A stretch of 64,000 nt of DNA, taken from the NCBI GenBank assembly GCA_001783215.1, contig MFRA01000005.1, positions 254,322 to 318,321 on the forward strand. The letters are read 5' to 3'. Shown here one piece after another: positions 3,087-60,622 of this stretch. The translations under genes were made by a program, and so were the position numbers. Below the pieces are notes generated by a model, which saw nothing but the letters and a program-made list of their open reading frames with translations, was not told where the DNA came from and made no database searches. Each line of letters begins with the position of its first letter. Positions within the stretch are counted from its first letter, which is position 1. Origin of the DNA: Candidatus Magasanikbacteria bacterium RIFOXYD1_FULL_40_23. Its GTDB lineage: Bacteria; Patescibacteriota; Patescibacteriia; Magasanikbacterales; GWA2-37-8.

Positions 3087-4187
3087 TTATTTAGCTAGCT
3101 TCCAATTTGGATCGGCTTTTATTTTTTTCCAAGAAGTAAAATCTTTTTGTTTTGCGTGATGGTATCCGGCCACGGCAATCATAGCCCCATTATCCATAGA
3201 GTATTTTAGTTCTGGGAGTTGGAAGCGGGTGTTAGGGAAGTTGGCAGTAATTTCTGATTGTAGAGTTTCGCGCAGTTTTTTGTTGGCGCTTACTCCGCCG
3301 CATAGAATAATTGTTTTTGGTTTGTATTCTGCTGCAGCAGTCATAGTTTTGGCTACCAGCACATCTATAATCGCTTGCTCAAAACTGGCGCAGAAATCAT
3401 TTATATTCAAAGATTCTTTATTGTCACGCAGCCAATAAAGAGCGGAAGTTTTTAGGCCGGAAAAACTAAAATTATAATCTTTGCTGTTAAGCATCGGTCT
3501 AGGGAATTTTATTGCTTCGGTGTTGCCAGTTAGTGCAAGTTTAGAAATTTGCGGTCCGCCAGGGTAGGGTAGTCCGATTAATTTTGCACCTTTATCAAAA
3601 CATTCTCCGGCCGCATCGTCTATGGTAGCGCCAAGCAGTTTGTATTTGCCGTGATCTTTCATAATAATAAGTTCGGTGTGTCCGCCGCTTACCACCAAAC
3701 ATAGAGCTGGAAATTGTAAATCCGTTTTGTCATTCTGAGGCGCAGACGAAGAATCCCTTTTGTCCGACCGAGAGGGATCCTTCACTCTGTTCAGGATGAC
3801 AGTGTCGTAGTTTTTTATTTGGGTAGAATAAATATGTCCTTCTATATGGTTTGTAGAAACCAAAGGCAGGTCTGTTATATAAGACAGTGTGCGGGCAGCT
3901 TCTACACCTACCAATAATCCAGTGATAAGTCCTGGTCCAGAAGTAACAGCTACAGCGTCTGGTTTTGGTTGATTTTCTAACACCGCTTCTATAAGCGGTA
4001 CAATTTTTTCGGCATGCATACGGCCGGCAATTTCTGGAACTACGCCGCCATATTTTTTGTGTACATCAATTTGAGAAGCGGTTTTTTCGGACAAAATAAA
4101 ACAGCCTTTATCGGAGCAGTCTAGCAAGGCTACGGAAGTGTCATCACAAGATGATTCAATACCGAGTATTCGCATATTTATAACCAA
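3087..4187 (-). CDS. tsaD: tRNA N6-adenosine threonylcarbamoyltransferase TsaD (Kae1/Gcp family). Likely true start is the second Met (MRILGIESSCDD, about 4175). Carries an in-frame ~26-aa insertion from a palindromic repeat.
   Basis: MRILGIESSCDDTSVAL, HIEGH, VSGGHTELI and DNGAMIA motifs. Relative to E. coli TsaD (recalled from memory), the HIEGH-to-VSGGH spacing is ~26 aa longer, and that stretch coincides with the repeat at 3728-3801. Confidence 0.88.
   Translation of the reverse strand: MVINMRILGIESSCDDTSVALLDCSDKGCFILSEKTASQIDVHKKYGGVVPEIAGRMHAEKIVPLIEAVLENQPKPDAVAVTSGPGLITGLLVGVEAARTLSYITDLPLVSTNHIEGHIYSTQIKNYDTVILNRVKDPSRSDKRDSSSAPQNDKTDLQFPALCLVVSGGHTELIIMKDHGKYKLLGATIDDAAGECFDKGAKLIGLPYPGGPQISKLALTGNTEAIKFPRPMLNSKDYNFSFSGLKTSALYWLRDNKESLNINDFCASFEQAIIDVLVAKTMTAAAEYKPKTIILCGGVSANKKLRETLQSEITANFPNTRFQLPELKYSMDNGAMIAVAGYHHAKQKDFTSWKKIKADPNWKLAK
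3728..3801. repeat. Family-A palindromic element, copy 1, in frame inside tsaD (encodes ...NRVKDPSRSDKRDSSSAPQNDKTD...)
   Basis: tgtcattctgaggcgcagacgaagaatcccttttgtccgaccgagagggatccttcactctgttcaggatgaca. The ends gtcattctga / tcaggatgac are inverted repeats with a central GGATCC. Matches copies at 14967, 51288, 52651, 59991 and 60612. Confidence 0.85.
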
Positions 4188-4440
4188 GTTTGTCTAGGAT
4201 ATGTGCAAGTTGAATTTTTAATTCAGAGTGTCCCTTACCACCTTTTAGGTATTTTTCTCTTTGTCGAGCATCGTCTTCGTGTAAATATCCTTCGTAATAA
4301 ATTAGACGTATAGGCCTTCTATGTTTAGTTGCTAAAACAAACCCAGATTTATGTTTAAGTATTCTCTTTTTTAAATCGGAAGTAAACCCAATATAAAGTT
4401 TACCATCTTTTTGGCAATACAAAATATATACGTAGTACAT
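4156..4440 (-). CDS. GIY-YIG nuclease family protein (UPF0213-like)
   Basis: YVYILYCQKDGKLYIGFTSDLKKRILKH fits the GIY-YIG pattern Y..Y...DG.LYIG.T.DL.KR...H. 94 aa. Overlaps the annotated tsaD start by ~30 nt. Confidence 0.8.
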   Translation of the reverse strand: MYYVYILYCQKDGKLYIGFTSDLKKRILKHKSGFVLATKHRRPIRLIYYEGYLHEDDARQREKYLKGGKGHSELKIQLAHILDKLGYKYANTRY

Positions 4441-4467
4441 ACCTTTATCCTGGTGTCGCGCGTTAGT

Positions 4468-4505
4468 GGCACGCTTAGCGTGCCTATAACGACGCTAAGC
4501 GTCGT
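4468..4505. repeat. Twin palindromes built on the core ACGCTTAGCGT (ggcACGCTTAGCGTgcc ... acgACGCTAAGCGTcgt)
   Basis: Two perfect palindromes 4 nt apart, immediately 3' of tRNA(CAU) and 28 nt upstream of the GIY-YIG start. The same twin arrangement recurs at 23967-24003. Confidence 0.7.
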
Positions 4506-4578
4506 GTCAAGGGAGAGATTTGAACTCTCGACCTCAGCGTTATGAATGCTGCGCTCTTACCAACTGAGCTACCCTGAC
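4505..4578 (-). tRNA. tRNA with CAU anticodon (Met elongator/initiator, or Ile2 if lysidinylated); CCA not encoded
   Basis: Minus-strand read GTCAGGGTAGCTCAGTTGGTAAGAGCGCAGCATTCATAACGCTGAGGTCGAGAGTTCAAATCTCTCCCTTGACA folds as a cloverleaf: 7-bp acceptor, D arm GCTC/GAGC, anticodon loop TTCATAA, T arm GAGAG/CTCTC with TTCAAAT loop. Confidence 0.8.
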
Positions 4579-5227: not shown

Positions 5228-5860
5228 ATGCGCGTTCTTTTTATCATCGCAGTAGCGATAGCCTCTCTTTGGTTGGGTGGCTGTGGAACAGGTAAGGCAT
5301 ATGTAAATTTGCGTAAGCCAATTTATTTGGTAACGGAGGATAGTTTTTTCACGGGCTGTGAAAAAGACCCTGCTGGTTCGGGTGCGTGTCGGGAGTCTCG
5401 TAGCCAGATAGTAAGGGATGGTGTAATGTTGTGGCTTAATCACTTCGAAAAGGATGTTCGTCCTTTTGTGGGGATTGTGTCCAATAGAGACCTTGTACCA
5501 TTTGGTACAACCAACCAGCCTATCCATATCATGGTGATGCCAGGTGGTTGTGATGAGGTATCAAAGAAGAAGACCATTTTGGCTTGTTATTTTGGCGGAG
5601 ATTGGTTTTCAGAACCGCATATAAATTTTACCAATACTGCTCCAGACCATATTGCTGCCAATGTGGTGGCTCACGAGTTTGGGCATGCGCTATTGGGTTC
5701 GGAGCACTATGACAATGAAGATGGCACTTTGTCTATTATGTCGGAGGCCGTGCCAATTGGCGGCGTCGTGGTTTCTACCGACATAGACCGTCTTTGCTGG
5801 ATTCACAAGGAATGCCCAAAACGCAAGCCTGTGCCTAAGAGTGGTAAAGGTACGAAATGA
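5228..5860 (+). CDS. Lipoprotein with a zinc-metalloprotease-like HExxH motif
   Basis: Signal peptide plus lipobox (IASLWLGGCGTG). VVAHEFGHALLGSEHYD (HExxH...GxxH, metzincin-like spacing). Confidence 0.6.
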   Translation: MRVLFIIAVAIASLWLGGCGTGKAYVNLRKPIYLVTEDSFFTGCEKDPAGSGACRESRSQIVRDGVMLWLNHFEKDVRPFVGIVSNRDLVPFGTTNQPIHIMVMPGGCDEVSKKKTILACYFGGDWFSEPHINFTNTAPDHIAANVVAHEFGHALLGSEHYDNEDGTLSIMSEAVPIGGVVVSTDIDRLCWIHKECPKRKPVPKSGKGTK

Positions 5861-13716: not shown

Positions 13717-14940
13717 ATGACAGTTGCTGATTTATTAGAAGAAACTTATTCCGCCTTATCCTCCAACAAAGCCAGGTCATTTTTGACTATTCTTGGTATT
13801 GTTATTGGTATTGGTTCGGTAATCGCTATGGTGGCCATTGGCCAAGGCGCGCAAAGTTCTATTGCCGCTCGCATTCAATCTATCGGTTCAGATTTGGTGC
13901 AAGTTACTCCAGGCGCGCAACGAGGAGTTGGTACTCAAGTCAGCTCTGGTCGTGGTGCATCTCGCACTCTCACCCAAGAAGATGCTGATGCTATTTCTAA
14001 AGAAGTAAGCACTGCCAAAGCGGTAGCTCCGGAACTTTCGGGACGTTATCAAGTTACAGCTAAAGGGAAAAATACAAATACATCCGTAGTAGGGGTTTCG
14101 CCAACTTATCCGGCCGTAAGAAATATAGCAGTAGATCAGGGTTCATTTATTTCTGACCAGAATTTGCTTAGTCTTTCCAAGGTGGCAGTTCTCGGTCCAA
14201 CCACGCGTGACGATCTTTTTGGAACAGATGCCGAAGCTGTCGGGCAGACAATACGAATTAAGAATATAGAATTTAAAGTAATCGGTATAACCACAGCTAA
14301 AGGTGGAACTGGTTTTGGTAGTCAAGACGATATGATATTCATTCCGCTTACCAGCGCGCAGCGGTTTTTGGCAGGGGATAATTATGTGACTACTATTAGT
14401 GTTCAGGCAGTTGATTCAGATTCAATGGCTCAAACACAGCAGCAAATAACAGATTTATTATTATCTCGTCATCATATTTCTGATCCAGAAGCAGCGGATT
14501 TTAGCACTTTGAATCAAGCGGACATTGTGGCCACCGCATCTAGTGTTACTGGTACGTTTACTATTCTGCTTGCGGCCGTGGCAGGAATTTCTTTGGTGGT
14601 AGGCGGCATTGGTATTATGAACATGATGTTAACTACAGTTACCGAACGAACCAGAGAGATTGGTTTGCGCAAAGCCATTGGAGCTAAACGAAGTGAGATT
14701 AATTTGCAGTTTCTTATTGAGGCAATAGTACTAACCTGCGTTGGCGGGTTGGTCGGTATAGTTTTGGGTTGGGCAGTGTCATTTGGGATTACTTATTTGG
14801 GAATTTTACAAACCAGCGTTTCTTTCTCTTCAGTCCTGCTTGCATTTGGAGTTTCGGCGGTTATCGGAATTGTTTTTGGTTATTTTCCTGCGCGTCGAGC
14901 TGCCGCGCTAAATCCGATAGATGCTTTGCGTTATGAATAA
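13717..14940 (+). CDS. ABC transporter permease (FtsX/MacB-type, 4 TM with a large periplasmic loop)
   Basis: N-terminal TM, ~250-aa extracytoplasmic domain, C-terminal FtsX-like TM triplet (ERTREIGLRKAIGAKRSEINLQFLIEA). Confidence 0.85.
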   Translation: MTVADLLEETYSALSSNKARSFLTILGIVIGIGSVIAMVAIGQGAQSSIAARIQSIGSDLVQVTPGAQRGVGTQVSSGRGASRTLTQEDADAISKEVSTAKAVAPELSGRYQVTAKGKNTNTSVVGVSPTYPAVRNIAVDQGSFISDQNLLSLSKVAVLGPTTRDDLFGTDAEAVGQTIRIKNIEFKVIGITTAKGGTGFGSQDDMIFIPLTSAQRFLAGDNYVTTISVQAVDSDSMAQTQQQITDLLLSRHHISDPEAADFSTLNQADIVATASSVTGTFTILLAAVAGISLVVGGIGIMNMMLTTVTERTREIGLRKAIGAKRSEINLQFLIEAIVLTCVGGLVGIVLGWAVSFGITYLGILQTSVSFSSVLLAFGVSAVIGIVFGYFPARRAAALNPIDALRYE

Positions 14941-14966
14941 ACAAACTATTTATTAATTAATTTAAC

Positions 14967-15040
14967 TGTCATTCTGAGCAAGGCGAAGAATCTCTTTCGT
15001 TTGGATGTAAAGGGATCCTTCATTACATTCAGGATGACAA
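14967..15040. repeat. Family-A palindromic element, copy 2 (intergenic)
   Basis: tgtcattctgagcaaggcgaagaatctctttcgtttggatgtaaagggatccttcattacattcaggatgacaa. Confidence 0.85.
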
Positions 15041-15046
15041 AAACGT

Positions 15047-15499
15047 ATGAAAAAAATATTACCAGTGTTTGTCGTTTTGTTAGTATTAGTAGGTGGAGGA
15101 TCTTTTTATGGAGGTATGAAGTATTCTGATAGTAAAAGAGTCTCAAGGTTTTCTGCCGATATGGCTGGGGGCGGTAATTTTCGTGCCGGCAATATAATGG
15201 GCGGTGGTGCGCCGCGTAGTACTGGAATGGCTGGAGGGAATGCCAGAGGAGTTGGTTTTGCAACCGGAGAAATTCTATCTAAAGACGATAGTAGTTTAAC
15301 TATAAAATTGCGTGATGGGGGCTCTCAGATAATTTTCTTTTCCACATCTACTCAAATTATGAAGTCATCTGCTGGATCAATGGGGGATTTAATAGTTGGA
15401 GAAAGTATTACAGTAAATGGTAGTACTAACCAAGATGGAAGTGTAACCGCGCAAAGCATTCAGTTACGTCCGGATATCGCTACATCTTCTATAAGGTAA
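15047..15499 (+). CDS. Gly-rich secreted/membrane-anchored hypothetical protein
   Basis: Signal/TM MKKILPVFVVLLVLVGGGSF, then Gly-rich GGGNFRAGNIMGGGAPRSTGMAGGNARG. Confidence 0.45.
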   Translation: MKKILPVFVVLLVLVGGGSFYGGMKYSDSKRVSRFSADMAGGGNFRAGNIMGGGAPRSTGMAGGNARGVGFATGEILSKDDSSLTIKLRDGGSQIIFFSTSTQIMKSSAGSMGDLIVGESITVNGSTNQDGSVTAQSIQLRPDIATSSIR

Positions 15500-49972: not shown

Positions 49973-50917
49973 ATGGAACTAGAACAATCTCTCCGCCAGT
50001 CAATACTTAGCACTCTAGCATATTTTGATTTATCTCAATTTCCCCTTACCAAAGAGGAACTTTTTGTTTTTCTTTGGGAGCCGCCGACCGTTAATTACGC
50101 AGATTTTTTGGAATTATTACAGACAGATAGTTTTGTAAATGGTAATTTTGAAACCAAAAACGGTTATTATTTTTTGCCAGGACGCCAAGAATTAGTAGAA
50201 ATAAGAAGACGCAGATTAATTATTTCAGAAAAGAAATTAAAGATTGCCAGGCGAGCGCTTAGAATAATTAGATCAGTTCCGTTTCTGAAAGCGGTATTTG
50301 TTTGCAATACGGTGGCATCAGAGCAGGCAAGTATAGATAGTGATATAGACTTTTTCATCGTTACAGCCAAGAACAGGATTTGGATTACCAGATTATTTGT
50401 TACATTTTTACTAGGACTGTTTAGATTGAGGCGTGTTAAAAATCGTGTCAAAGATAAAATTTGCCTTAGTTTTTATGTTACCGAAGAAGCTTTGGACCTG
50501 TCCAAATTTAGAGTAATAGACGACGATGTTCACTTTGCTTTTTGGATAAACCAAATGTTGCCGGCGTATGATCCGGATAATTTTTATGCCAAATTTTTGG
50601 AAGCAAACAGTTGGACAAAAAAGTATTTACCAAATATAAATAGTAGTAGCGCTTCTTCGTATATTTTTAGGATTACCAATTCTAAATTAGGCAAAATTTG
50701 GAAGAGTGCATGGGAGAAAATGTGGGAGGGGAGTTATGGCAGCTTAATTAATGAGGAAGCCAAAAAAATACAGATTTCTAAGATGAAATTTTCTGGTAAC
50801 AAAATAGACCGAGGCGATGATAAAGGAGTGGTAATTTCTGATTCTGTATTAAAATTTCACGAAAAAGATACTAGAATTGAATATAGAGAATTATGGAAAA
50901 ACAAAATCGGGGTTTAA
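49973..50917 (+). CDS. Hypothetical protein with a minimal nucleotidyltransferase-like motif
   Basis: VCNTVASEQASIDSDIDFFIVT fits the G[SG]...DxD pattern of the Pol-beta-type NTase fold. Otherwise unrecognised. Confidence 0.4.
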   Translation: MELEQSLRQSILSTLAYFDLSQFPLTKEELFVFLWEPPTVNYADFLELLQTDSFVNGNFETKNGYYFLPGRQELVEIRRRRLIISEKKLKIARRALRIIRSVPFLKAVFVCNTVASEQASIDSDIDFFIVTAKNRIWITRLFVTFLLGLFRLRRVKNRVKDKICLSFYVTEEALDLSKFRVIDDDVHFAFWINQMLPAYDPDNFYAKFLEANSWTKKYLPNINSSSASSYIFRITNSKLGKIWKSAWEKMWEGSYGSLINEEAKKIQISKMKFSGNKIDRGDDKGVVISDSVLKFHEKDTRIEYRELWKNKIGV

Positions 50918-52263
50918 TTTTGCAAGAAGTTCAACATGTGTTAGCGTTGTTGTTTTTGTTTTTGCTGCCATGGCAAACCAGATATATTTGGAAGTATGGC
51001 CAATTAAATGGCGGCTATTGGGAGTATGGCACGGGCAGTCTGTATGTAACAGAGATTTTATTGTGGGTTATTTTGGTATTATTTTTTGTTAATAATTTTT
51101 TAAAGAAAGAAGTTTGGGTCGGTTTGTTTAAAAATAAAAATGTTTTTTCTTTGGTGTTCGCTGGGTTTTTAGCTGTGGTGGGCGCATCAGTAATGTTGAG
51201 CGAAAATTTTGGCATCTCCTATAATTATATTTTCCGTATTTTGGAGGGCATGGCCATAATGACGGTGCTGTTTCGGAGCGGGCAGTCTGTCATCCTGAAC
51301 GGAGTGAAGGATCCCTTAAACACAAATGAAAGGGATTCTTCGGTCGCTTTTCTTCCTCAGAATGACAGATATGTAGTTGCTATTTGGCTTGGCGCGGTAG
51401 GGCAGGGAGCGCTGGCGATTTATCAGTTTTTGACCCAGCATGTTTTTGCCAGCAAGTGGCTAGGTATGGCAGCGCAAGAGTCGTACAACTTGGGCCCAAG
51501 CGTAATACAATTTGCTGACCAGAGGTGGTTGCGCGCCTACGGTAGTTTTGGTTCGCCAAATTCTTTGGGGATTTATTTGGCTGTGTTATTTGTATTAGGT
51601 TTTATTTTATATTTTAAAACGCAAATACCGCGCTATAAAATTTTAATTAGCGTAGGTCAATTATTTATTTTATCTGGATTGTTGCTTTCTTTTTCTCGCG
51701 GGGCGTGGTTGGCAGCTTTGGTTGGTCTGGCATCTCTTTTTATTGTTTTATTTTTTAAACAAAAAGATTTTTTACGAGATTTTATAAAACAGATCGTATT
51801 TGCTTTGGGTGTAGCTATATTTTGGATTATTATTTTTTATCCAGTTTTTAACGCCAGATTTAATTTGCAAAATCGTTTGGAAGCCACGTCTGTTTCCGAA
51901 AGAAAAGGGCAGTATAGCGAATCTTTATCTTTTATTAAATTAAATCCAATTTTTGGGGTTGGGCCGGGCGTATATACTTTTGCTTTGGCCAAAAAATATC
52001 CAGATTTAGCTTCGTGGCAGCTGCAGCCAATACATAATATTTATTTACTTATTCTCGTAGAGATGGGCATATTTGGTATGTTGGCTATATTTTTATCAGT
52101 TGCCAGTATTGCTAGACTGATACTTAAAAATAACTTAATTTACGCACCAGTTTTGACGGCTTTGTTTGCTTCTGGAATGCTAGATCATTGGTTGGCCAGC
52201 CTGTTTACAGGCATGGTTTTTTGGTGGGTAGTCTTGGGTTTAGGCCTAAAAAAGAACCCTTGA
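50893..52263 (+). CDS. O-antigen ligase/polymerase-like (Wzy_C-type) polytopic membrane protein carrying an in-frame Family-A repeat
   Basis: About 10-12 TM helices with a periplasmic loop containing RGAWLAALVGL-type Wzy_C features. Inserted peptide VILNGVKDPLNTNERDSSVAFLPQNDRYV. Confidence 0.55.
   Translation: MEKQNRGLILQEVQHVLALLFLFLLPWQTRYIWKYGQLNGGYWEYGTGSLYVTEILLWVILVLFFVNNFLKKEVWVGLFKNKNVFSLVFAGFLAVVGASVMLSENFGISYNYIFRILEGMAIMTVLFRSGQSVILNGVKDPLNTNERDSSVAFLPQNDRYVVAIWLGAVGQGALAIYQFLTQHVFASKWLGMAAQESYNLGPSVIQFADQRWLRAYGSFGSPNSLGIYLAVLFVLGFILYFKTQIPRYKILISVGQLFILSGLLLSFSRGAWLAALVGLASLFIVLFFKQKDFLRDFIKQIVFALGVAIFWIIIFYPVFNARFNLQNRLEATSVSERKGQYSESLSFIKLNPIFGVGPGVYTFALAKKYPDLASWQLQPIHNIYLLILVEMGIFGMLAIFLSVASIARLILKNNLIYAPVLTALFASGMLDHWLASLFTGMVFWWVVLGLGLKKNP
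51288..51368. repeat. Family-A palindromic element, copy 3 (in frame in the Wzy-like gene)
   Basis: tgtcatcctgaacggagtgaaggatcccttaaacacaaatgaaagggattcttcggtcgcttttcttcctcagaatgacag. Confidence 0.85.
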
Positions 52264-52650: not shown

Positions 52651-52747
52651 TGTCATTCCGAATCCCTTTTGTGGGGTGAGGAATCTTTGTCCATATTGTT
52701 GTTAAGTACAGAGATCCCTCGTCGCTACGGCTCGCTCGGGATGACAA
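52651..52747. repeat. Family-A-related palindromic element, variant copy (groES-groEL intergenic)
   Basis: tgtcattccgaatccc...gatccctcgtcgctacggctcgctcgggatgacaa. Terminal inverted repeats tgtcatYccg and the central gatcc are retained. Confidence 0.7.
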
Positions 52748-58509: not shown

Positions 58510-59739
58510 ATGCTTGGTGATAGAAAAAGTAAGTTAGAAAAGAATTTCTTCAAAATTTTTTTCATTAACGCCCTTCTTAATGTAAAGATGATAAATATTG
58601 TTATCTCTTTATTTTATGTTTACCGTAGTTTGCGAGTGGCAGATATTTTTTATTTAGGAGTTGTGTATTCGGCTACGGTAATACTAAGCGAGGTGCCATC
58701 AAGTTATTTGGCCGATAGATTTGGCAGAAAACGCACTATTATTATGGCCGCATTTTTTGGTCTTCTGCACTGGGTATTTTTTTTAACCGCAAATTCCTTT
58801 TTTCTATTTGCAATCGGCATAGTGTTTTATGCGCTGGCCGAATCTTGTATGAGCGGTACGGACGAAGCTTTTGTTTATGATACCAACAAAGAACTTAATA
58901 ACCAGTCTCAGTCATTACAAAAATTAAGTCGCTATTTTTCTTCCGAAAGATTTTTCAAAATATTTTCTGCGTTTTTGGGCGCTATTATTGCCAAAGATTT
59001 ACTGGATTGGCAATTTAACTCAATTATTATGGTAGATATGGTAGCGTCTGTGGTAGCTATTATCTTTGCCTTTACATTACTCGAGCCGAATCATTTTATG
59101 GATGTAGAAAAGCAGGAGGCTGGATTGATAAAGGATGCTTATAAAATTTTATCCAGAGACAAAACACTTATGTTTAGCGTACTTAATAAGCTGCTTGTGC
59201 TTATTGGCGCTCACTTGTGTTGGGCCTATGCCACGGTTTTCTTTGTTGATAACTTAAGCATATCTGTTGTAACTATGGGTATAGTTTGGAGCGTGTATCA
59301 TTTCTTGGTGTTGGGCGCCAGTCATTTTTTGCATTCTTTATGGCCAAATCATTCCGAAACAGTTAAGATTAATATGCTAAGCGCCGTTGTTTCGGCGGCT
59401 TTGGGGATGTTTCTTTTCAGTTGGTTCTTTTTCCCATATAAGTATATCCTTTTAGCGTTTTATCTTATAGTAGAATTCACTGCTTCTATAAGACAGCCTA
59501 TTTTTTCCAATATTTTTAATAAGCAATTCTTCTCCTATAATAGAGCTACCACCTTATCTATGGCCAATTTTGTCCAGCATGTATTTCAGATCCCGTTACT
59601 GCTGCTCACGGGCTGGCTTGTCGGTATAAATATTATTTTTCCGTATGTAGTTGCTTTATTCCTAGCGCTTGCCGCAGTTCTTTATTTTAGAATAAATCAA
59701 AAAGAACCTAACAATGTATATGTCTCAAAAACTATTTAA
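58510..59739 (+). CDS. MFS transporter
   Basis: About 11-12 TM helices. ADRFGRKRTII (MFS motif A-like GRKR) between TM2 and TM3. Confidence 0.75.
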   Translation: MLGDRKSKLEKNFFKIFFINALLNVKMINIVISLFYVYRSLRVADIFYLGVVYSATVILSEVPSSYLADRFGRKRTIIMAAFFGLLHWVFFLTANSFFLFAIGIVFYALAESCMSGTDEAFVYDTNKELNNQSQSLQKLSRYFSSERFFKIFSAFLGAIIAKDLLDWQFNSIIMVDMVASVVAIIFAFTLLEPNHFMDVEKQEAGLIKDAYKILSRDKTLMFSVLNKLLVLIGAHLCWAYATVFFVDNLSISVVTMGIVWSVYHFLVLGASHFLHSLWPNHSETVKINMLSAVVSAALGMFLFSWFFFPYKYILLAFYLIVEFTASIRQPIFSNIFNKQFFSYNRATTLSMANFVQHVFQIPLLLLTGWLVGINIIFPYVVALFLALAAVLYFRINQKEPNNVYVSKTI

Positions 59740-60622
59740 TGAAGATTATCTAAAGCATCTTTGCCAAAAATACAGCCTTACCCCGTCCAAAAAATATGGG
59801 CAGAATTATTTGGTAAATCCAGAGCCGATAGAAAAAATGGTAAATGCAGCAGAAATTAAAAAAGACGATGTGGTAGTAGAAGTGGGTCCGGGATTTGGCG
59901 TTCTTACGTTAGCTTTGGCAGAAAAGGCAAAAAAGGTAATTTCATTTGAAATTGAAAAAAAATTGACGACCTACTGGAAAAATATTACAGGTCATCCTGA
60001 ACGGAGTGAAGGATCCCTCTTGGCGAACGAAAGGGATTCTTCGGCAGAGCCTCAGAATGACAAATACAAGAATATAGAAATAGTTTGGGGAAATATATTA
60101 TACGAATTTAAAGGTGATGGATTAAAAGCGGGGGAGTACAAAGTAGTAGCCAATTTACCATACCAAATTACTTCGCATGTAATTAGGAAATTTTTGGAAA
60201 TGGAAAACAATCCAGATATGCTGGTGCTTATGGTGCAAAAAGAGGTAGCCGAAAGAATTTGTGCGCAAGCAGGTGATATGTCTGTTTTGGCGGTATCTGT
60301 TCAATATTATGGCAAGCCAGAGATTGTCACTTTTGTGCCACGTTCATCTTTTTGGCCAATGCCGGCGGTGGATTCGGCAGTAATAAAGATAAAAATAAAT
60401 AAAGATAATGCAGGTGCTAAAAATAATAGCGAATCTTTTTTCAAGCTTGTAAAAGCTGGTTTTTCTAGTCGTAGAAAAATGCTTATCAAAAATCTAAGCG
60501 CGGTAGCGGACAGGCAAGCTCTACGCAACCTATTTAAAGAACTGGGTATAGACGAAAAGGTGCGAGCGCAAGAATTAAGCGTGGAGCAGTGGAAAGAAAT
60601 AGTTGCCAAATTGTCATTCTGA
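59714..60622 (+). CDS. rsmA: 16S rRNA (adenine1518/1519-N6)-dimethyltransferase RsmA/KsgA. Has an in-frame Family-A repeat, and its last residues plus stop codon come from a second repeat copy.
   Basis: YGQNYLVNPE, VVEVGPGFGVLTLAL, NLPYQITS. Inserted peptide GHPERSEGSLLANERDSSAEPQNDKYKN. C-terminal ...KLSF-TGA lies inside ttgtcattctga. Confidence 0.85.
   Translation: MYMSQKLFNEDYLKHLCQKYSLTPSKKYGQNYLVNPEPIEKMVNAAEIKKDDVVVEVGPGFGVLTLALAEKAKKVISFEIEKKLTTYWKNITGHPERSEGSLLANERDSSAEPQNDKYKNIEIVWGNILYEFKGDGLKAGEYKVVANLPYQITSHVIRKFLEMENNPDMLVLMVQKEVAERICAQAGDMSVLAVSVQYYGKPEIVTFVPRSSFWPMPAVDSAVIKIKINKDNAGAKNNSESFFKLVKAGFSSRRKMLIKNLSAVADRQALRNLFKELGIDEKVRAQELSVEQWKEIVAKLSF
59991..60062. repeat. Family-A palindromic element, copy 4 (in frame in rsmA)
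   Basis: gtcatcctgaacggagtgaaggatccctcttggcgaacgaaagggattcttcggcagagcctcagaatgaca. Confidence 0.85.

What the first reader, a model, noticed from the sequence alone, without database searches (positions are those of the whole stretch)
51288..51368. Family-A element in frame inside a polytopic Wzy/O-antigen-ligase-like membrane protein
The 81-bp copy adds 27 aa (…VILNGVKDPLNTNERDSSVAFLPQNDRYV…) within a loop of a ~12-TM protein. It shares orientation and reading frame with the tsaD and rsmA copies. The encoded peptide is hydrophilic and acidic, so it is tolerated as a loop. This reinforces that insertion is frame- and orientation-selected.
Basis: seen in the sequence. Interest (0 to 1): 0.5.

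Follow-up and report, generated by a model that had tools for sequence, protein, structure and literature searches.

The report
Palindromic repeat translated inside membrane protein
A 78-base palindromic repeat sits in frame inside a membrane-protein gene of an uncultured groundwater bacterium and adds a floppy 26-residue loop; it belongs to a known kind of repeat (tagged REP, like the Rickettsia palindromic elements) that had not been reported in this group of bacteria.

Summary
Window 51289-51366 (+) is a 78-bp palindromic element. It lies in frame in a 456-aa Wzy_C (O-antigen-ligase-like) gene of a Candidatus Magasanikbacteria genome. Three more copies of the same family are in the window: in tsaD, in rsmA and in one spacer.

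The closest orthologues (77-83% identical) lack the segment, so it is an insertion. AlphaFold places it as the only low-confidence stretch, a coil between TM4 and TM5 that is probably cytoplasmic.

The element is not a simple palindrome. It is an inverted pair of 25-nt hairpin units, each with a (T/C)GTC tag. This matches the CGTC/TGTC-tagged REP superfamily of Di Nocera 2013, which includes Rickettsia RPE-4/-6, inserts in frame in genes, and has no known transposase. The unit occurs in most bacterial phyla.

In 115 metagenomic copies, genic copies are mostly sense (17:3 after de-duplication) and nearly all fall in two length classes that give one exit frame (..QND). This supports selection on frame and orientation.

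One correction: the rsmA copy enters in a different frame from the wzy and tsaD copies.

Verdict: a new member of a known kind. Translation and the way the element moves are not shown.

The parts
51289..51366 (+). 78-bp element core (inverted dimer of two tagged REP-like units plus spacer), in frame in the Wzy_C gene; encodes VILNGVKDPLNTNERDSSVAFLPQND
51289..51313 (+). Left unit: tag GTC (preceded by T at 51288), then hairpin ATCCT-GA-AC-GGA-GT-GA-AGGAT, then C. This is the canonical RY-GNA-RY mini-hairpin unit.
   Evidence: within-unit covariation in 130 copies (6:22 CG 66/TA 61; 11:17 GC 90/AT 31; 12:16 CG 115/TA 8)
51314..51334 (+). Spacer between the two units (CCTTAAACACAAATGAAAGGG). Its ends pair and lengthen the long hairpin. 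With the adjoining unit bases it is 19/22 identical to the spacer of the copy at the same site in L002.
51335..51366 (-). Right unit, read on the - strand: GTCATTCTGAGGAAGAAAAGCGACCGAAGAAT. It has an enlarged, degenerate apical part. On the + strand it encodes ..DSSVAFLPQND.
50893..52263 (+). Host gene: 456-aa Wzy_C / O-antigen-ligase-like polytopic membrane protein. The insert is at residues 133-158, between TM4 and TM5.
3729..3800 (-). 72-bp copy of the same family, sense and in frame in tsaD (3087-4187, -). It encodes VILNRVKDPSRSDKRDSSSAPQND. The segment is absent from solved TsaD structures.
59991..60061 (+). 71-bp copy, sense in rsmA/ksgA (59714-60622, +). It enters in another frame (GHPERSEGS) and leaves in the ..PQND frame. 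It is absent from the syntenic rsmA of L001 and L002.
14968..15038 (-). 71-bp copy in the spacer between two + strand genes (13717-14940 and 15047-15499), antisense to them
52652..52745 (.). Inverted dimer of tagged units of another family (GTCATTCCGA.. / GTCATCCCGAGCGAGCC..) in the GroES-GroEL spacer. Same superfamily, not family A.

Best explanation
The segment is a non-autonomous repeat element that inserted into the coding sequence and is read through by the ribosome.

Anatomy (shown). The element is two inverted 25-nt units separated by about 20 nt. Each unit is a (T/C)GTC tag followed by a small hairpin: ATYCT, GA, RY, GNA, RY, GA, AGRAT. This is the architecture of the CGTC/TGTC-tagged REP superfamily, to which Rickettsia RPE-4/-6 belong.

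It is an insertion into a short loop between TM4 and TM5 (shown). The native loop is 10 aa. The closest orthologues have CAG GAA AAT AAG TAT where this genome has CAG TCT [78 bp] AGA TAT.

The loop side is inferred. Helix parity, the K/R distribution and the WaaL-like fold make it cytoplasmic.

Why it is kept (inferred). The 78 bases are a multiple of three. They carry no stop codon in the frame used, and they encode a mildly hydrophilic, acidic, disordered 26-mer. The protein therefore still folds, and the copy escapes purifying selection.

Why genic copies share frame and orientation (partly shown). This looks like a survival filter, not frame-aware insertion. Only about one fifth of sampled copies are genic. 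Those are mostly sense and fall in the two length classes that leave in the ..QND frame. The third frame ends in TGA. The antisense reading gives basic or hydrophobic peptides such as VILRRSRRIP and ..FASLRMT.

How it moves (not shown). There is no target-site duplication and no linked transposase. The most likely route is trans-mobilisation of the folded single strand by an unlinked enzyme, as for REP/RAYT and IS200/IS605.
For: Repeat family: 4 copies against 0 expected. The window holds 10 tagged units arranged as 5 inverted dimers, against 1.9 units in shuffles.

Insertion:
- Orthologues P0003, P0004 and P0005 (77-83% identical, 431 aa) lack the segment. Gene order is the same, NusA-YidC-PRC-x-Wzy-GroES-GroEL.
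- The rsmA and tsaD copies are likewise absent from orthologues or solved structures.

Loop:
- AlphaFold gives mean pLDDT 92.3 and pTM 0.93.
- The 10-residue blocks covering residues 131-160 score 59, 56 and 72.
- Residues 137-155 are coil between helices 106-136 and 156-181.
- The best structural match is WaaL 7tpg_B, E 1.2e-6.
- K/R residues cluster on the loops assigned to the inside.

Permissive site: among 115 full-length orthologues, this loop (baseline 10 aa) and a second one near residue 290 (baseline 8 aa) each carry element-type peptides of many families in roughly a quarter of the sequences.

Unit structure:
- Within-unit covariation is 6:22 CG 66/TA 61/TG 2/CA 1, 11:17 GC 90/AT 31, and 12:16 CG 115/TA 8.
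- The apical loop is GNA in 106 of 130 copies.
- Position 6 varies independently between the two arms.

Tag and target: T at -1 in 102 of 126 copies and A at +1 in 98 of 126, with no target-site duplication.

Selection filter:
- 22 of 115 copies are genic. In the raw counts, 19 are sense and 3 antisense (binomial p 0.0009).
- After de-duplication, with a slightly different definition of 'genic', the split is 17:3 (p 0.003).
- Genic core length mod 3 is 0:11, 2:10, 1:1, against 22, 35, 36 for non-genic copies (Fisher p 0.002).

Known kind: PMC3733652 describes CGTC/TGTC-tagged REPs with these properties:
- they are mostly inverted dimers;
- intragenic dimers encode 20-30 aa;
- R. conorii RPE-4/-6 are members;
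- there is no dedicated transposase.

No RAYT, TIRYT or GIY-YIG homologue was found in the DNA held around the sampled copies: about 1.6 Mb for RAYT/TIRYT, and the window plus the first 123 loci for GIY-YIG.
Against: Translation of the segment is not demonstrated. No transcript or peptide data were available.

The direction of events is not fully resolved. A near-identical 78-bp copy (86% identity, same spacer) sits at the same site in P0007, whose protein is only 65% identical, while closer relatives are empty. This needs either repeated precise loss or repeated gain at one site.

The net gain (75 bp) does not equal the core (78 bp) or the core plus T and A (80 bp). The original junction therefore cannot be reconstructed.

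The cytoplasmic side of the loop rests on a model and the positive-inside rule, not on experiment.

Copies in spacers show the opposite orientation bias (5 sense to 17 antisense). The peptide filter does not explain this, so some strand-specific process also acts.
Confidence: 0.8

Rival explanations
1. The insertion (or replacement) mechanism is itself site-directed. The element homes to an already occupied or sequence-defined site, so recurrence at this loop and the shared orientation come from the mechanism rather than from selection on the protein.
For: - Different element families occupy the same loop with the same right junction (..ND|[KR]xxx-A[IL]W) in separate clades.
- The sister genomes (window and L003, 83% identical) share the left junction CAG TCT|GTCATC to the base but carry different elements.
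- The window and L002 copies share 19 of 22 spacer bases although their hosts are 65% identical.
- Spacer copies have their own orientation bias.
Against: - No conserved target beyond T/A is seen in 126 flanks.
- The tsaD and rsmA sites show no sequence in common with the wzy site apart from being AT-rich.
- The depletion of one length class and of antisense copies inside genes is what a protein-level filter predicts.
- Recurrence is equally expected if only two short loops of this protein tolerate insertions.
Confidence: 0.12
2. The copy has been co-opted. Either the hairpin in the mRNA (stability, RNase III processing, translational pausing during membrane insertion) or the extra cytoplasmic loop now has a function, and it is kept by positive or purifying selection.
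For: - The element is more conserved between the window and L002 (86% at nucleotide level) than the host protein (65% at amino-acid level).
- The strong predicted hairpin (-37 kcal/mol) lies inside an mRNA.
- REPs are thought to act as RNA elements (PMC3733652).
Against: - The closest relatives do without it, and others carry unrelated elements at the same place.
- 6 of the 26 residues differ between the two orthologous copies, with changes concentrated where the unit consensus allows them. This points to constraint on the DNA/RNA unit rather than on the peptide.
- The loop is predicted to be disordered.
Confidence: 0.1
3. The segment is removed before or during translation (RNA processing and religation, an intron-like element, or ribosomal bypass), so the protein made is the 431-aa form and the open frame is incidental.
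For: Candidate Phyla Radiation genomes are known for intervening sequences in rRNA genes (my own background knowledge, not tested here). The element is a very stable hairpin.
Against: - If the segment were removed, neither a length that keeps the frame nor the absence of stop codons would be required. Yet genic copies are strongly enriched for exactly these properties and for one orientation.
- No Rfam intron or ribozyme family matches.
- R. conorii proteins carrying RPE-1 at the N terminus are reported as expressed in vivo (PMC3733652).
Confidence: 0.05
4. The segment is a native, ancestral part of the protein (or an assembly artefact) that only resembles a repeat.
For: A similar segment is present in some more distant homologues (P0007, P0033).
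Against: - The nearest orthologues lack it, and the family baseline loop is 10 aa.
- The same 25-mer occurs in three unrelated places in the window and in most bacterial phyla.
- The homologues that carry the segment also carry the palindrome.
- The identical protein is on record from 9 contigs.
Confidence: 0.02

Closest known systems
CGTC/TGTC-tagged REP superfamily (Di Nocera, De Gregorio and Rocco 2013, BMC Genomics 14:522, PMC3733652)
   Same: - An unpaired (C/T)GTC tag.
- A short hairpin whose stem starts with A-T then T-A.
- A short C-rich tail.
- Units mostly arranged as inverted dimers.
- Mostly intergenic, with a minority in frame inside genes, where dimers encode 20-30 aa.
- No adjacent transposase.
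- A textbook CGTC-1 dimer (CCGTCATTCCCGCCGCAAGCGGGAATCCAG..) sits in the second loop of the orthologue P0006. CGTC-1-type peptides (VIPAKAGIQ..FRGND, SFPPQAGIQ..GMT) fill the same loops of other orthologues.
   Different: - The unit here has a 5-bp stem, two tandem G.A pairs, a 2-bp stem and a 3-nt GNA loop. The described families have an 8-9 bp stem and a 4-5 nt loop.
- The tail is CCC/CTC rather than CCA.
- I could not match the unit to CGTC-1 to -4, because their consensus figure is not held. Its head resembles CGTC-2 (peptide RHSELVSGS).
- The paper reports the superfamily in 5 phyla. This unit was found in many more, including Patescibacteria.
Rickettsia palindromic elements (RPE; Ogata et al. 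2000 and 2002; reviewed in PMC10969869)
   Same: A palindromic repeat inserted in frame in unrelated housekeeping genes of a small-genome bacterium. It adds a peptide that is compatible with the fold. RPE-4 and RPE-6 are CGTC-tagged REPs according to PMC3733652.
   Different: The host is a Candidate Phyla Radiation bacterium, not Rickettsia. The element is 71-78 bp, against about 150 bp for RPE-1. Sequence relationship to individual RPE families was not tested. Here the same loop is reused by several families in orthologues.
REPIN-RAYT systems (Bertels and Rainey 2011; GTAG-tagged REPs)
   Same: Two inverted REP units that can form a long hairpin. The element is non-autonomous, lacks a target-site duplication and is presumably handled as single-stranded DNA.
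   Different: The tag is (T/C)GTC, not GTAG. No RAYT/Y1 transposase homologue was found in about 1.6 Mb around 245 copies. The unit sequence is nearly the same across phyla, whereas REPINs are lineage-specific.
Bacterial MITEs (for example Correia/NEMIS, Nezha, QMITE of Coxiella; PMC5896051)
   Same: Short, non-coding, with terminal inverted repeats, many copies, and occasional in-frame fusions with genes.
   Different: No target-site duplication. No parent insertion sequence with the same ends. The inverted repeats are themselves self-folding units with within-unit covariation.

Membership tests
CGTC/TGTC-tagged REP superfamily (PMC3733652) | Unpaired terminal tag CGTC, also TGTC or CCTC, at one end of each unit | tested here: met
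   Window units start ctGTC, ttGTC or agGTC. In 126 copies the base before GTC is T in 102 and C in 18.
CGTC/TGTC-tagged REP superfamily (PMC3733652) | Each unit is a small hairpin; the stem begins with complementary A and T in its first and second positions | tested here: met
   Unit ATYCT-GA-RY-GNA-RY-GA-AGRAT. Covariation is 6:22 CG 66/TA 61, 11:17 GC 90/AT 31, and 12:16 CG 115/TA 8. The A-T and T-A pairs were fixed by the search pattern, but they are seen directly in all window units.
CGTC/TGTC-tagged REP superfamily (PMC3733652) | Stem of 8-9 bp and loop of 4-5 nt, as in families CGTC-1 to -4 | tested here: inconclusive
   Nine stem positions, but two are G.A pairs, and the loop is 3 nt (GNA in 106 of 130). 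The paper itself notes families with other loops. I read this as a further family, not as exclusion. The consensus figure was not available.
CGTC/TGTC-tagged REP superfamily (PMC3733652) | Short unpaired tail after the hairpin (consensus CCA) | tested here: inconclusive
   Tails here are CCC(T), CTC(T) or CTT(T). They are similar but not CCA. The CGTC-1 dimer in L240 does have CCA.
CGTC/TGTC-tagged REP superfamily (PMC3733652) | Units mostly organised as inverted dimers | tested here: met
   The 10 units in the window form 5 inverted dimers, with no singletons.
CGTC/TGTC-tagged REP superfamily (PMC3733652) | No dedicated transposase gene next to the repeats | tested here: met
   No recurrent neighbouring protein family. 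phmmer with three RAYT/TIRYT sequences against all ORFs of about 1.6 Mb around 245 copies gave no hit.
Rickettsia palindromic elements (RPE) | Repeated palindrome inserted in frame in functional ORFs, at a position compatible with the fold | tested here: met
   Three of the four family-A copies in the window are in frame in Wzy_C, TsaD and RsmA. The insert is a disordered loop in the model and lies between aligned blocks of solved TsaD.
Rickettsia palindromic elements (RPE) | Sequence similarity to one of the RPE consensus families | not tested
The only link is the literature statement that RPE-4/-6 are CGTC REPs.
MITE derived from an insertion sequence | Target-site duplication flanking the terminal inverted repeats | tested here: not met
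   Direct-repeat matches between flanks are at the chance level for k = 1 to 8 in 126 copies.
REPIN-RAYT | GTAG-tagged REP units and a cognate RAYT gene | tested here: not met
   The tag is (T/C)GTC. No RAYT homologue is near any copy. A single-copy gene elsewhere in the genome cannot be excluded from a 64-kb window.
Wzy_C / O-antigen-ligase-like membrane proteins (host gene) | Pfam PF04932 above the curated cut-off and a roughly 12-helix WaaL-like fold | tested here: met
   79.9 bits against a cut-off of 31.7. The AlphaFold model has pLDDT 92.3 and 12 long hydrophobic helices. The only significant PDB match is WaaL 7tpg_B (E 1.2e-6, TM 0.49/0.54). Whether it is a ligase or a polymerase was not tested.

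The most novel reading that the evidence does not exclude
The unit (T/C)GTC-ATYCTGA-RYGNARY-GAAGRAT-C is a structure-constrained element that is almost the same sequence in most bacterial phyla and has no linked transposase. In Patescibacteria it turns over in place at a few loops of conserved proteins: different families replace one another at the same junction. It also follows opposite orientation rules inside genes and in spacers. Together these would point to an undescribed, trans-acting, site-directed mobilisation or replacement machinery, or a strand-specific cellular role, rather than passive junk filtered by selection.
Probability: 0.2. Interest if true: 0.65.

Novelty: new member of a known kind. 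Interest (0 to 1): 0.4.

Why it matters
It extends a phenomenon known mainly from Rickettsia to the Candidate Phyla Radiation: palindromic repeats that are translated as extra loops in essential proteins. In the Candidate Phyla Radiation it appears common. Three of about sixty genes in this window are affected, and roughly a quarter of the orthologues of this one protein carry such an insert at each of two loops.

Practical consequences:
- Such inserts inflate apparent protein divergence.
- They create spurious 'hypothetical' ORFs and spurious similarity between unrelated proteins.
- They mark permissive loops that could be used for protein engineering.

The wider family (one 25-nt hairpin unit across most phyla, no transposase) remains an unsolved problem of how small repeats spread and persist.

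Tried and rejected
1. GIY-YIG nuclease link. I recalled such palindromes next to small GIY-YIG genes. The window does have one (4159-4494, -), about 400 bp from the tsaD copy. Neither a regex nor phmmer found any homologue in the 120 genome loci. Rejected.
2. RAYT/TIRYT (Y1 HUH) transposase nearby. No hit in about 1.6 Mb.
3. Any recurrent neighbouring gene. Clustering all ORFs within 400 bp of 130 copies recovered only the element-encoded peptides.
4. Autonomous parent element between paired copies (L041, L052, L110). Nothing transposase-like was found.
5. Rfam. No family matched at gathering score in the window or in 8 loci. Only chance-level hits appeared at E up to 10.
6. Target-site duplication. 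None.
7. The long hairpin as the selected structure. Positions 6 and 22 vary independently between the two arms but covary within each arm. The small within-unit hairpins are therefore the constrained structure.
8. Hammerhead-like or tRNA-like readings of the CUGA..GAA motifs. Considered by eye. The core does not fit, and neither ARAGORN-type nor Rfam models support them.
9. Literature searches with the DNA strings and the encoded peptides found only primers or nothing. Searches on the Candidate Phyla Radiation plus palindromic insertions found nothing specific.
10. Phage and plasmid collections. No phage match and two cyanobacterial plasmids, so no sign of a vector.
11. The RPE consensus paper (PMC186582) is not held.
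12. DNA for P0025 could not be fetched.
Full report
1. What is in the sequence

Window 51286-51369 reads TCT GTCATCCTGAACGGAGTGAAGGATC CCTTAAACACAAATGAAAGG GATTCTTCGGTCGCTTTTCTTCCTCAGAATGAC AGA. The outer arms (13 nt, 92% complementary) and an inner pair of arms (12 nt) are inverted repeats. As a single strand the region folds at -37.2 kcal/mol, against -22.3 +/- 3.3 for shuffles (z = -4.6).

The 25-nt left arm occurs four times in the window at up to 3 mismatches. No match occurred in 100 dinucleotide-preserving shuffles. The other copies are:
- 3729-3800 on the - strand,
- 14968-15038 on the - strand,
- 59991-60061 on the + strand.

Core lengths (GTCAT..ATGAC) are 78, 72, 71 and 71 bp.

The copy under study lies in frame in the ORF 50893-52263 (456 aa). 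The tsaD copy lies in frame and sense in 3087-4187 (-). The rsmA copy lies in frame and sense in 59714-60622 (+). The fourth copy is in a spacer between two + strand genes and is antisense to them.

The wzy and tsaD copies are read GTC ATC CTG (VIL..). The rsmA copy is read G GTC ATC.. as GGT CAT CCT (GHPERSEGS). Because it is 71 bp long, it leaves in the same frame as the others (..RDSS..PQND).

2. The host gene and organism

The ORF matches Pfam Wzy_C (PF04932, E 2e-22). It is identical to a hypothetical protein of Candidatus Magasanikbacteria bacterium RIFOXYD2_FULL_39.

An AlphaFold model built on 113 homologues has mean pLDDT 92.3 and pTM 0.93. Its only significant match among solved structures is the O-antigen ligase WaaL (7tpg_B, E 1.2e-6, TM 0.49/0.54). 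I did not try to decide between ligase and polymerase.

3. It is an insertion

The three closest orthologues without the segment (P0003, P0004, P0005) are 77-83% identical and 431 aa long. They read ..VL-RSGQENKYVL-AIW.. or similar, where the window reads ..VLF-RSGQS[26 aa]RYVV-AIW...

At DNA level the empty site of L239 is CAG GAA AAT AAG TAT. That of L001 is TGG AAT AAT AAA TAT. The window has CAG TCT [78 bp] AGA TAT.

Gene order around the gene is conserved in these contigs: NusA, YidC, PRC-barrel, an unknown gene, Wzy_C, GroES, GroEL, then RF1, Sua5, DUF4015 and RsmA. These are true orthologous sites.

The rsmA genes of L001 and L002 (276 and 280 aa) lack the rsmA insert, which is a net +23 aa. 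Residues 129-154 of TsaD have no counterpart in solved TsaD structures; they fall between the two aligned blocks of 6n9a_D.

4. Where the insert sits in the protein

The model has twelve long hydrophobic helices. The only low-confidence stretch is residues about 131-160 (block pLDDT 59, 56, 72). Residues 137-155 are coil between helices 106-136 and 156-181.

I counted helices from an N terminus that carries K3 and R6. K/R-rich short loops then fall on alternate sides. On that basis the TM4-TM5 loop is on the cytoplasmic side. The same holds for a second short loop near residue 290. This is an inference, not a measurement.

The 26-mer has GRAVY -0.49, pI 4.4 and net charge -2.

5. The same loops are reused in orthologues

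In 115 full-length orthologues the TM4-TM5 loop has a baseline of 10 aa and the loop near residue 290 a baseline of 8 aa. Each is expanded in roughly a quarter of the sequences. The expansions are recognisable element products of many kinds:
- VIL..QND,
- CHPERSEGS..AQND,
- VIPAKAGIQ..FRGND,
- SFPPQAGIQ..AAGMT,
- ..ALRMT.

The right junction at the first loop is the same in separate clades..ND, then K or R, then three residues, then A-[IL]-W.

In a neighbour-joining tree the window protein is sister to P0002. P0002 carries a different 93-bp element after the identical left junction CAG TCT|GTCATC. Next come the empty P0003, then the empty P0004 and P0005, then P0006 with yet another element.

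P0007 (65% identical) lies in another clade, together with two proteins that carry decayed remnants. It has a 78-bp family-A copy at the same site that is 86% identical to the window copy. The match includes 19 of 22 spacer bases and the same unusual long right unit.

This needs either repeated precise loss and replacement, or repeated gain at one position. I cannot decide between them.

6. What the element is

The hits come from Nitrospirota, Acidobacteriota, Bacillota, Bacteroidota, Planctomycetota, Chloroflexota, Verrucomicrobiota, several classes of Proteobacteria, Omnitrophota, Patescibacteria and others, including isolates (Pedobacter, Mucilaginibacter, Legionella).

In 126 copies with flanks, the base before the core is T in 102 and C in 18. 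The base after is A in 98. Nothing else is conserved, and there is no target-site duplication.

The two arms are not simply each other's complement.
- Position 6 (C/T) in the left arm and its partner in the right arm vary independently (36, 34, 31, 29 for the four combinations).
- Within one arm, position 6 covaries almost perfectly with position 22 (CG 66, TA 61, TG 2, CA 1).
- Position 11 covaries with 17 (GC 90, AT 31, GT 6, AC 3).
- Position 12 covaries with 16 (CG 115, TA 8, TG 5).
- The three bases between are GNA in 106 of 130 copies.

These positions were free (Y, R or N) in the search pattern, so the pattern did not impose the covariation.

Each 25-nt arm is therefore a self-folding unit: tag GTC; stem ATYCT; two G.A pairs; stem RY; loop GNA; and back. 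In many copies the second unit has its apical part replaced by another local hairpin, such as GGCCAACGGCC, TCCCGCCGTTGGCGGGA or GGGCTTTGCCC.

The window contains ten such tagged units arranged as five inverted dimers. Shuffles give 1.9 units.

7. Comparison with what is known

This anatomy is that of the CGTC-tagged REP superfamily of Di Nocera et al. 2013 (PMC3733652). Their description includes:
[quoted passage not shown] - a short tail;
- mostly inverted dimers;
- intragenic dimers that encode 20-30 aa;
- the intragenic R. conorii repeats being RPE-4 and RPE-6;

Their table of intragenic copies lists VIPAKAGI, SFPRKRES..DSRFRGND..AFAGMT, VIPWLDHGI and RHSELVSGS. These are the same peptide types that fill the Wzy loops. 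The second loop of P0006 holds a textbook CGTC-1 dimer.

The family studied here differs from the four described families in its G.A pairs, its 3-nt GNA loop and its CCC/CTC tail. I could not see their consensus figure. I therefore file it as a further family of that superfamily rather than as one of CGTC-1 to -4.

It works like the Rickettsia palindromic elements, which are known for in-frame insertion in housekeeping genes (PMC10969869).

It is not a classical MITE, because there is no target-site duplication and no parent insertion sequence. It is not a GTAG REPIN, because the tag differs and no RAYT was found. There is no Rfam family for it.

8. Is frame and orientation selected?

Only 22 lie inside a stop-free reading frame that extends at least 50 aa on both sides. 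Of these, 19 are sense and 3 antisense. After removal of copies with near-identical flanks the counts are 17:3 (p = 0.003).

Genic cores have length mod 3 of 0 (11), 2 (10) and 1 (1). Non-genic cores have 22, 35 and 36 (Fisher p = 0.002).

The reason can be read from the sequence.
- One entry frame contains TGA (G TCA TCC TGA).
- One exit frame contains TGA (TCA GAA TGA).
- A core of length 0 mod 3 entered as VIL.. leaves as ..QND.
- A core of length 2 mod 3 entered as (C/G)HPERSEGS also leaves as ..QND.
- Length 1 mod 3 gives ..FFASLRMT, which is common in spurious ORFs and almost absent from real genes.

Genic copies are also enriched for a second unit with two extra bases (CTTCGGCTNCGCCTCAG). 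This turns the stop-bearing ..DSSLRSE* frame into ..RDSSxxPQND. The antisense reading of the same DNA gives VILRRSRRIP..KGSFASLRMT.

The filter does not explain one further result. Copies in spacers between co-directional genes show the opposite bias, 5 sense to 17 antisense (p = 0.017; Fisher against genic copies 6.5e-5). The sample is small and gene calling was crude, so I list this as unexplained.

9. Mechanism, and what is shown or inferred

Shown:
- repeat family;
- insertion relative to orthologues;
- in-frame, stop-free state;
- position in a disordered loop of a confident model;
- unit structure with covariation;
- lack of target-site duplication and of linked transposase;
- orientation and length bias of genic copies.

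Inferred:
- the segment is translated;
- the loop is cytoplasmic;
- the copy is neutral or nearly so;
- spread is by trans-mobilisation of a folded single strand.

Unknown:
- the enzyme;
- the original junction (net +75 bp for a 78-bp core);
- whether the site is reused by homing or only because it is permissive.

10. Verdict

The element belongs to a known kind (tagged REP dimers, RPE-like in-frame insertions). It is a new family member in a new host group. It comes with several unexplained population-level features that are worth a proper census.

Noticed in passing
window 52652-52745: An inverted dimer of tagged units of a different family (GTCATTCCGAATCCC.. and GTCATCCCGAGCGAGCCGTAGCGACGAGGGAT) fills the GroES-GroEL spacer. 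Its second unit resembles the element that occupies the wzy loop in the sister genome L003 (GTCATCCCGAGCGAGCCTCGCGGCGACGAGGGATC). L003 also has an element in its GroES-GroEL spacer (5638-5747).
   Followed up: partly
window 4159-4494 (-): A small GIY-YIG (YhbQ/COG2827-like) ORF (MYYVYILYCQKDGKLYIGFTSDLKKRILKHKSG..) lies between tsaD and a tRNA gene (4505-4578), about 400 bp from the tsaD copy. No homologue was found near any of the copies in the 120 genome loci searched, so the proximity looks coincidental.
   Followed up: yes
loci L124-L238 (metagenome copies): There is an orientation dichotomy. Genic copies are 17 sense to 3 antisense, but copies in spacers between co-directional genes are 5 sense to 17 antisense (Fisher p 6.5e-5). 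The only spacer copy in the window (14968-15038) is also antisense.
   Followed up: partly
Wzy orthologues P0001-P0120; L240 positions about 1370-1470: A second short loop (near residue 290 of the window protein, baseline 8 aa) is a second hot spot for element insertions in orthologues. One example is a textbook CGTC-1 REP dimer in P0006 (KPSFPPQAGIQAIGSDTRFPLAAGMT). The window protein is empty at that site.
   Followed up: partly
L060 1071-1147; L110 6237-6301 and 6547-6611: Other Patescibacteria proteins carry in-frame copies. LepA/EF4 of a Baikal Magasanikbacteria genome has ..KYTCHPERSEGSRPQSQLGSSVGSPPQNDSTYTLNLIDTPGH... A family-2 glycosyltransferase has one internal copy and one at its 5' end.
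   Followed up: no
L046 6886-6960; L077 5993-6072; L113 1260-1336; L053 185-246: Outside Patescibacteria, a few copies also lie inside very long open frames (flanks of 180-880 aa) in a Thermoguttaceae, a gammaproteobacterial, an Omnitrophota and a Rickettsiales genome. I did not check whether these are real genes.
   Followed up: no
window 14946-15263 (-): A 105-aa ORF on the - strand runs through the spacer copy and ends ..VILNVMKDPFTSKRKRFFALLRMTVKLINK. It overlaps the start of the + strand gene 15047-15499 and is most likely a spurious ORF created by the stop-free element.
   Followed up: no
L003 9178-10941, compared with L001 15700-17453 and L002 15360-17127: In L003 the Sua5/YciO/YrdC gene and the DUF4015 gene are called as one 587-aa product. 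They are two genes in L001 and L002. This could be a fusion or a sequencing or calling artefact.
   Followed up: no
L002 1-1773: A 1207-residue class-I aminoacyl-tRNA synthetase product has Pfam hits to HAD/hydrolase families between its synthetase parts. This suggests a large domain insertion.
   Followed up: no
L010 7582-7648 and 7657-7723; L041 2330-2407 and 3153-3230: Copies can occur in tandem, 8 bp apart, in a Lachnospiraceae genome. They can also occur as identical copies 745 bp apart with no convincing gene between them.
   Followed up: partly
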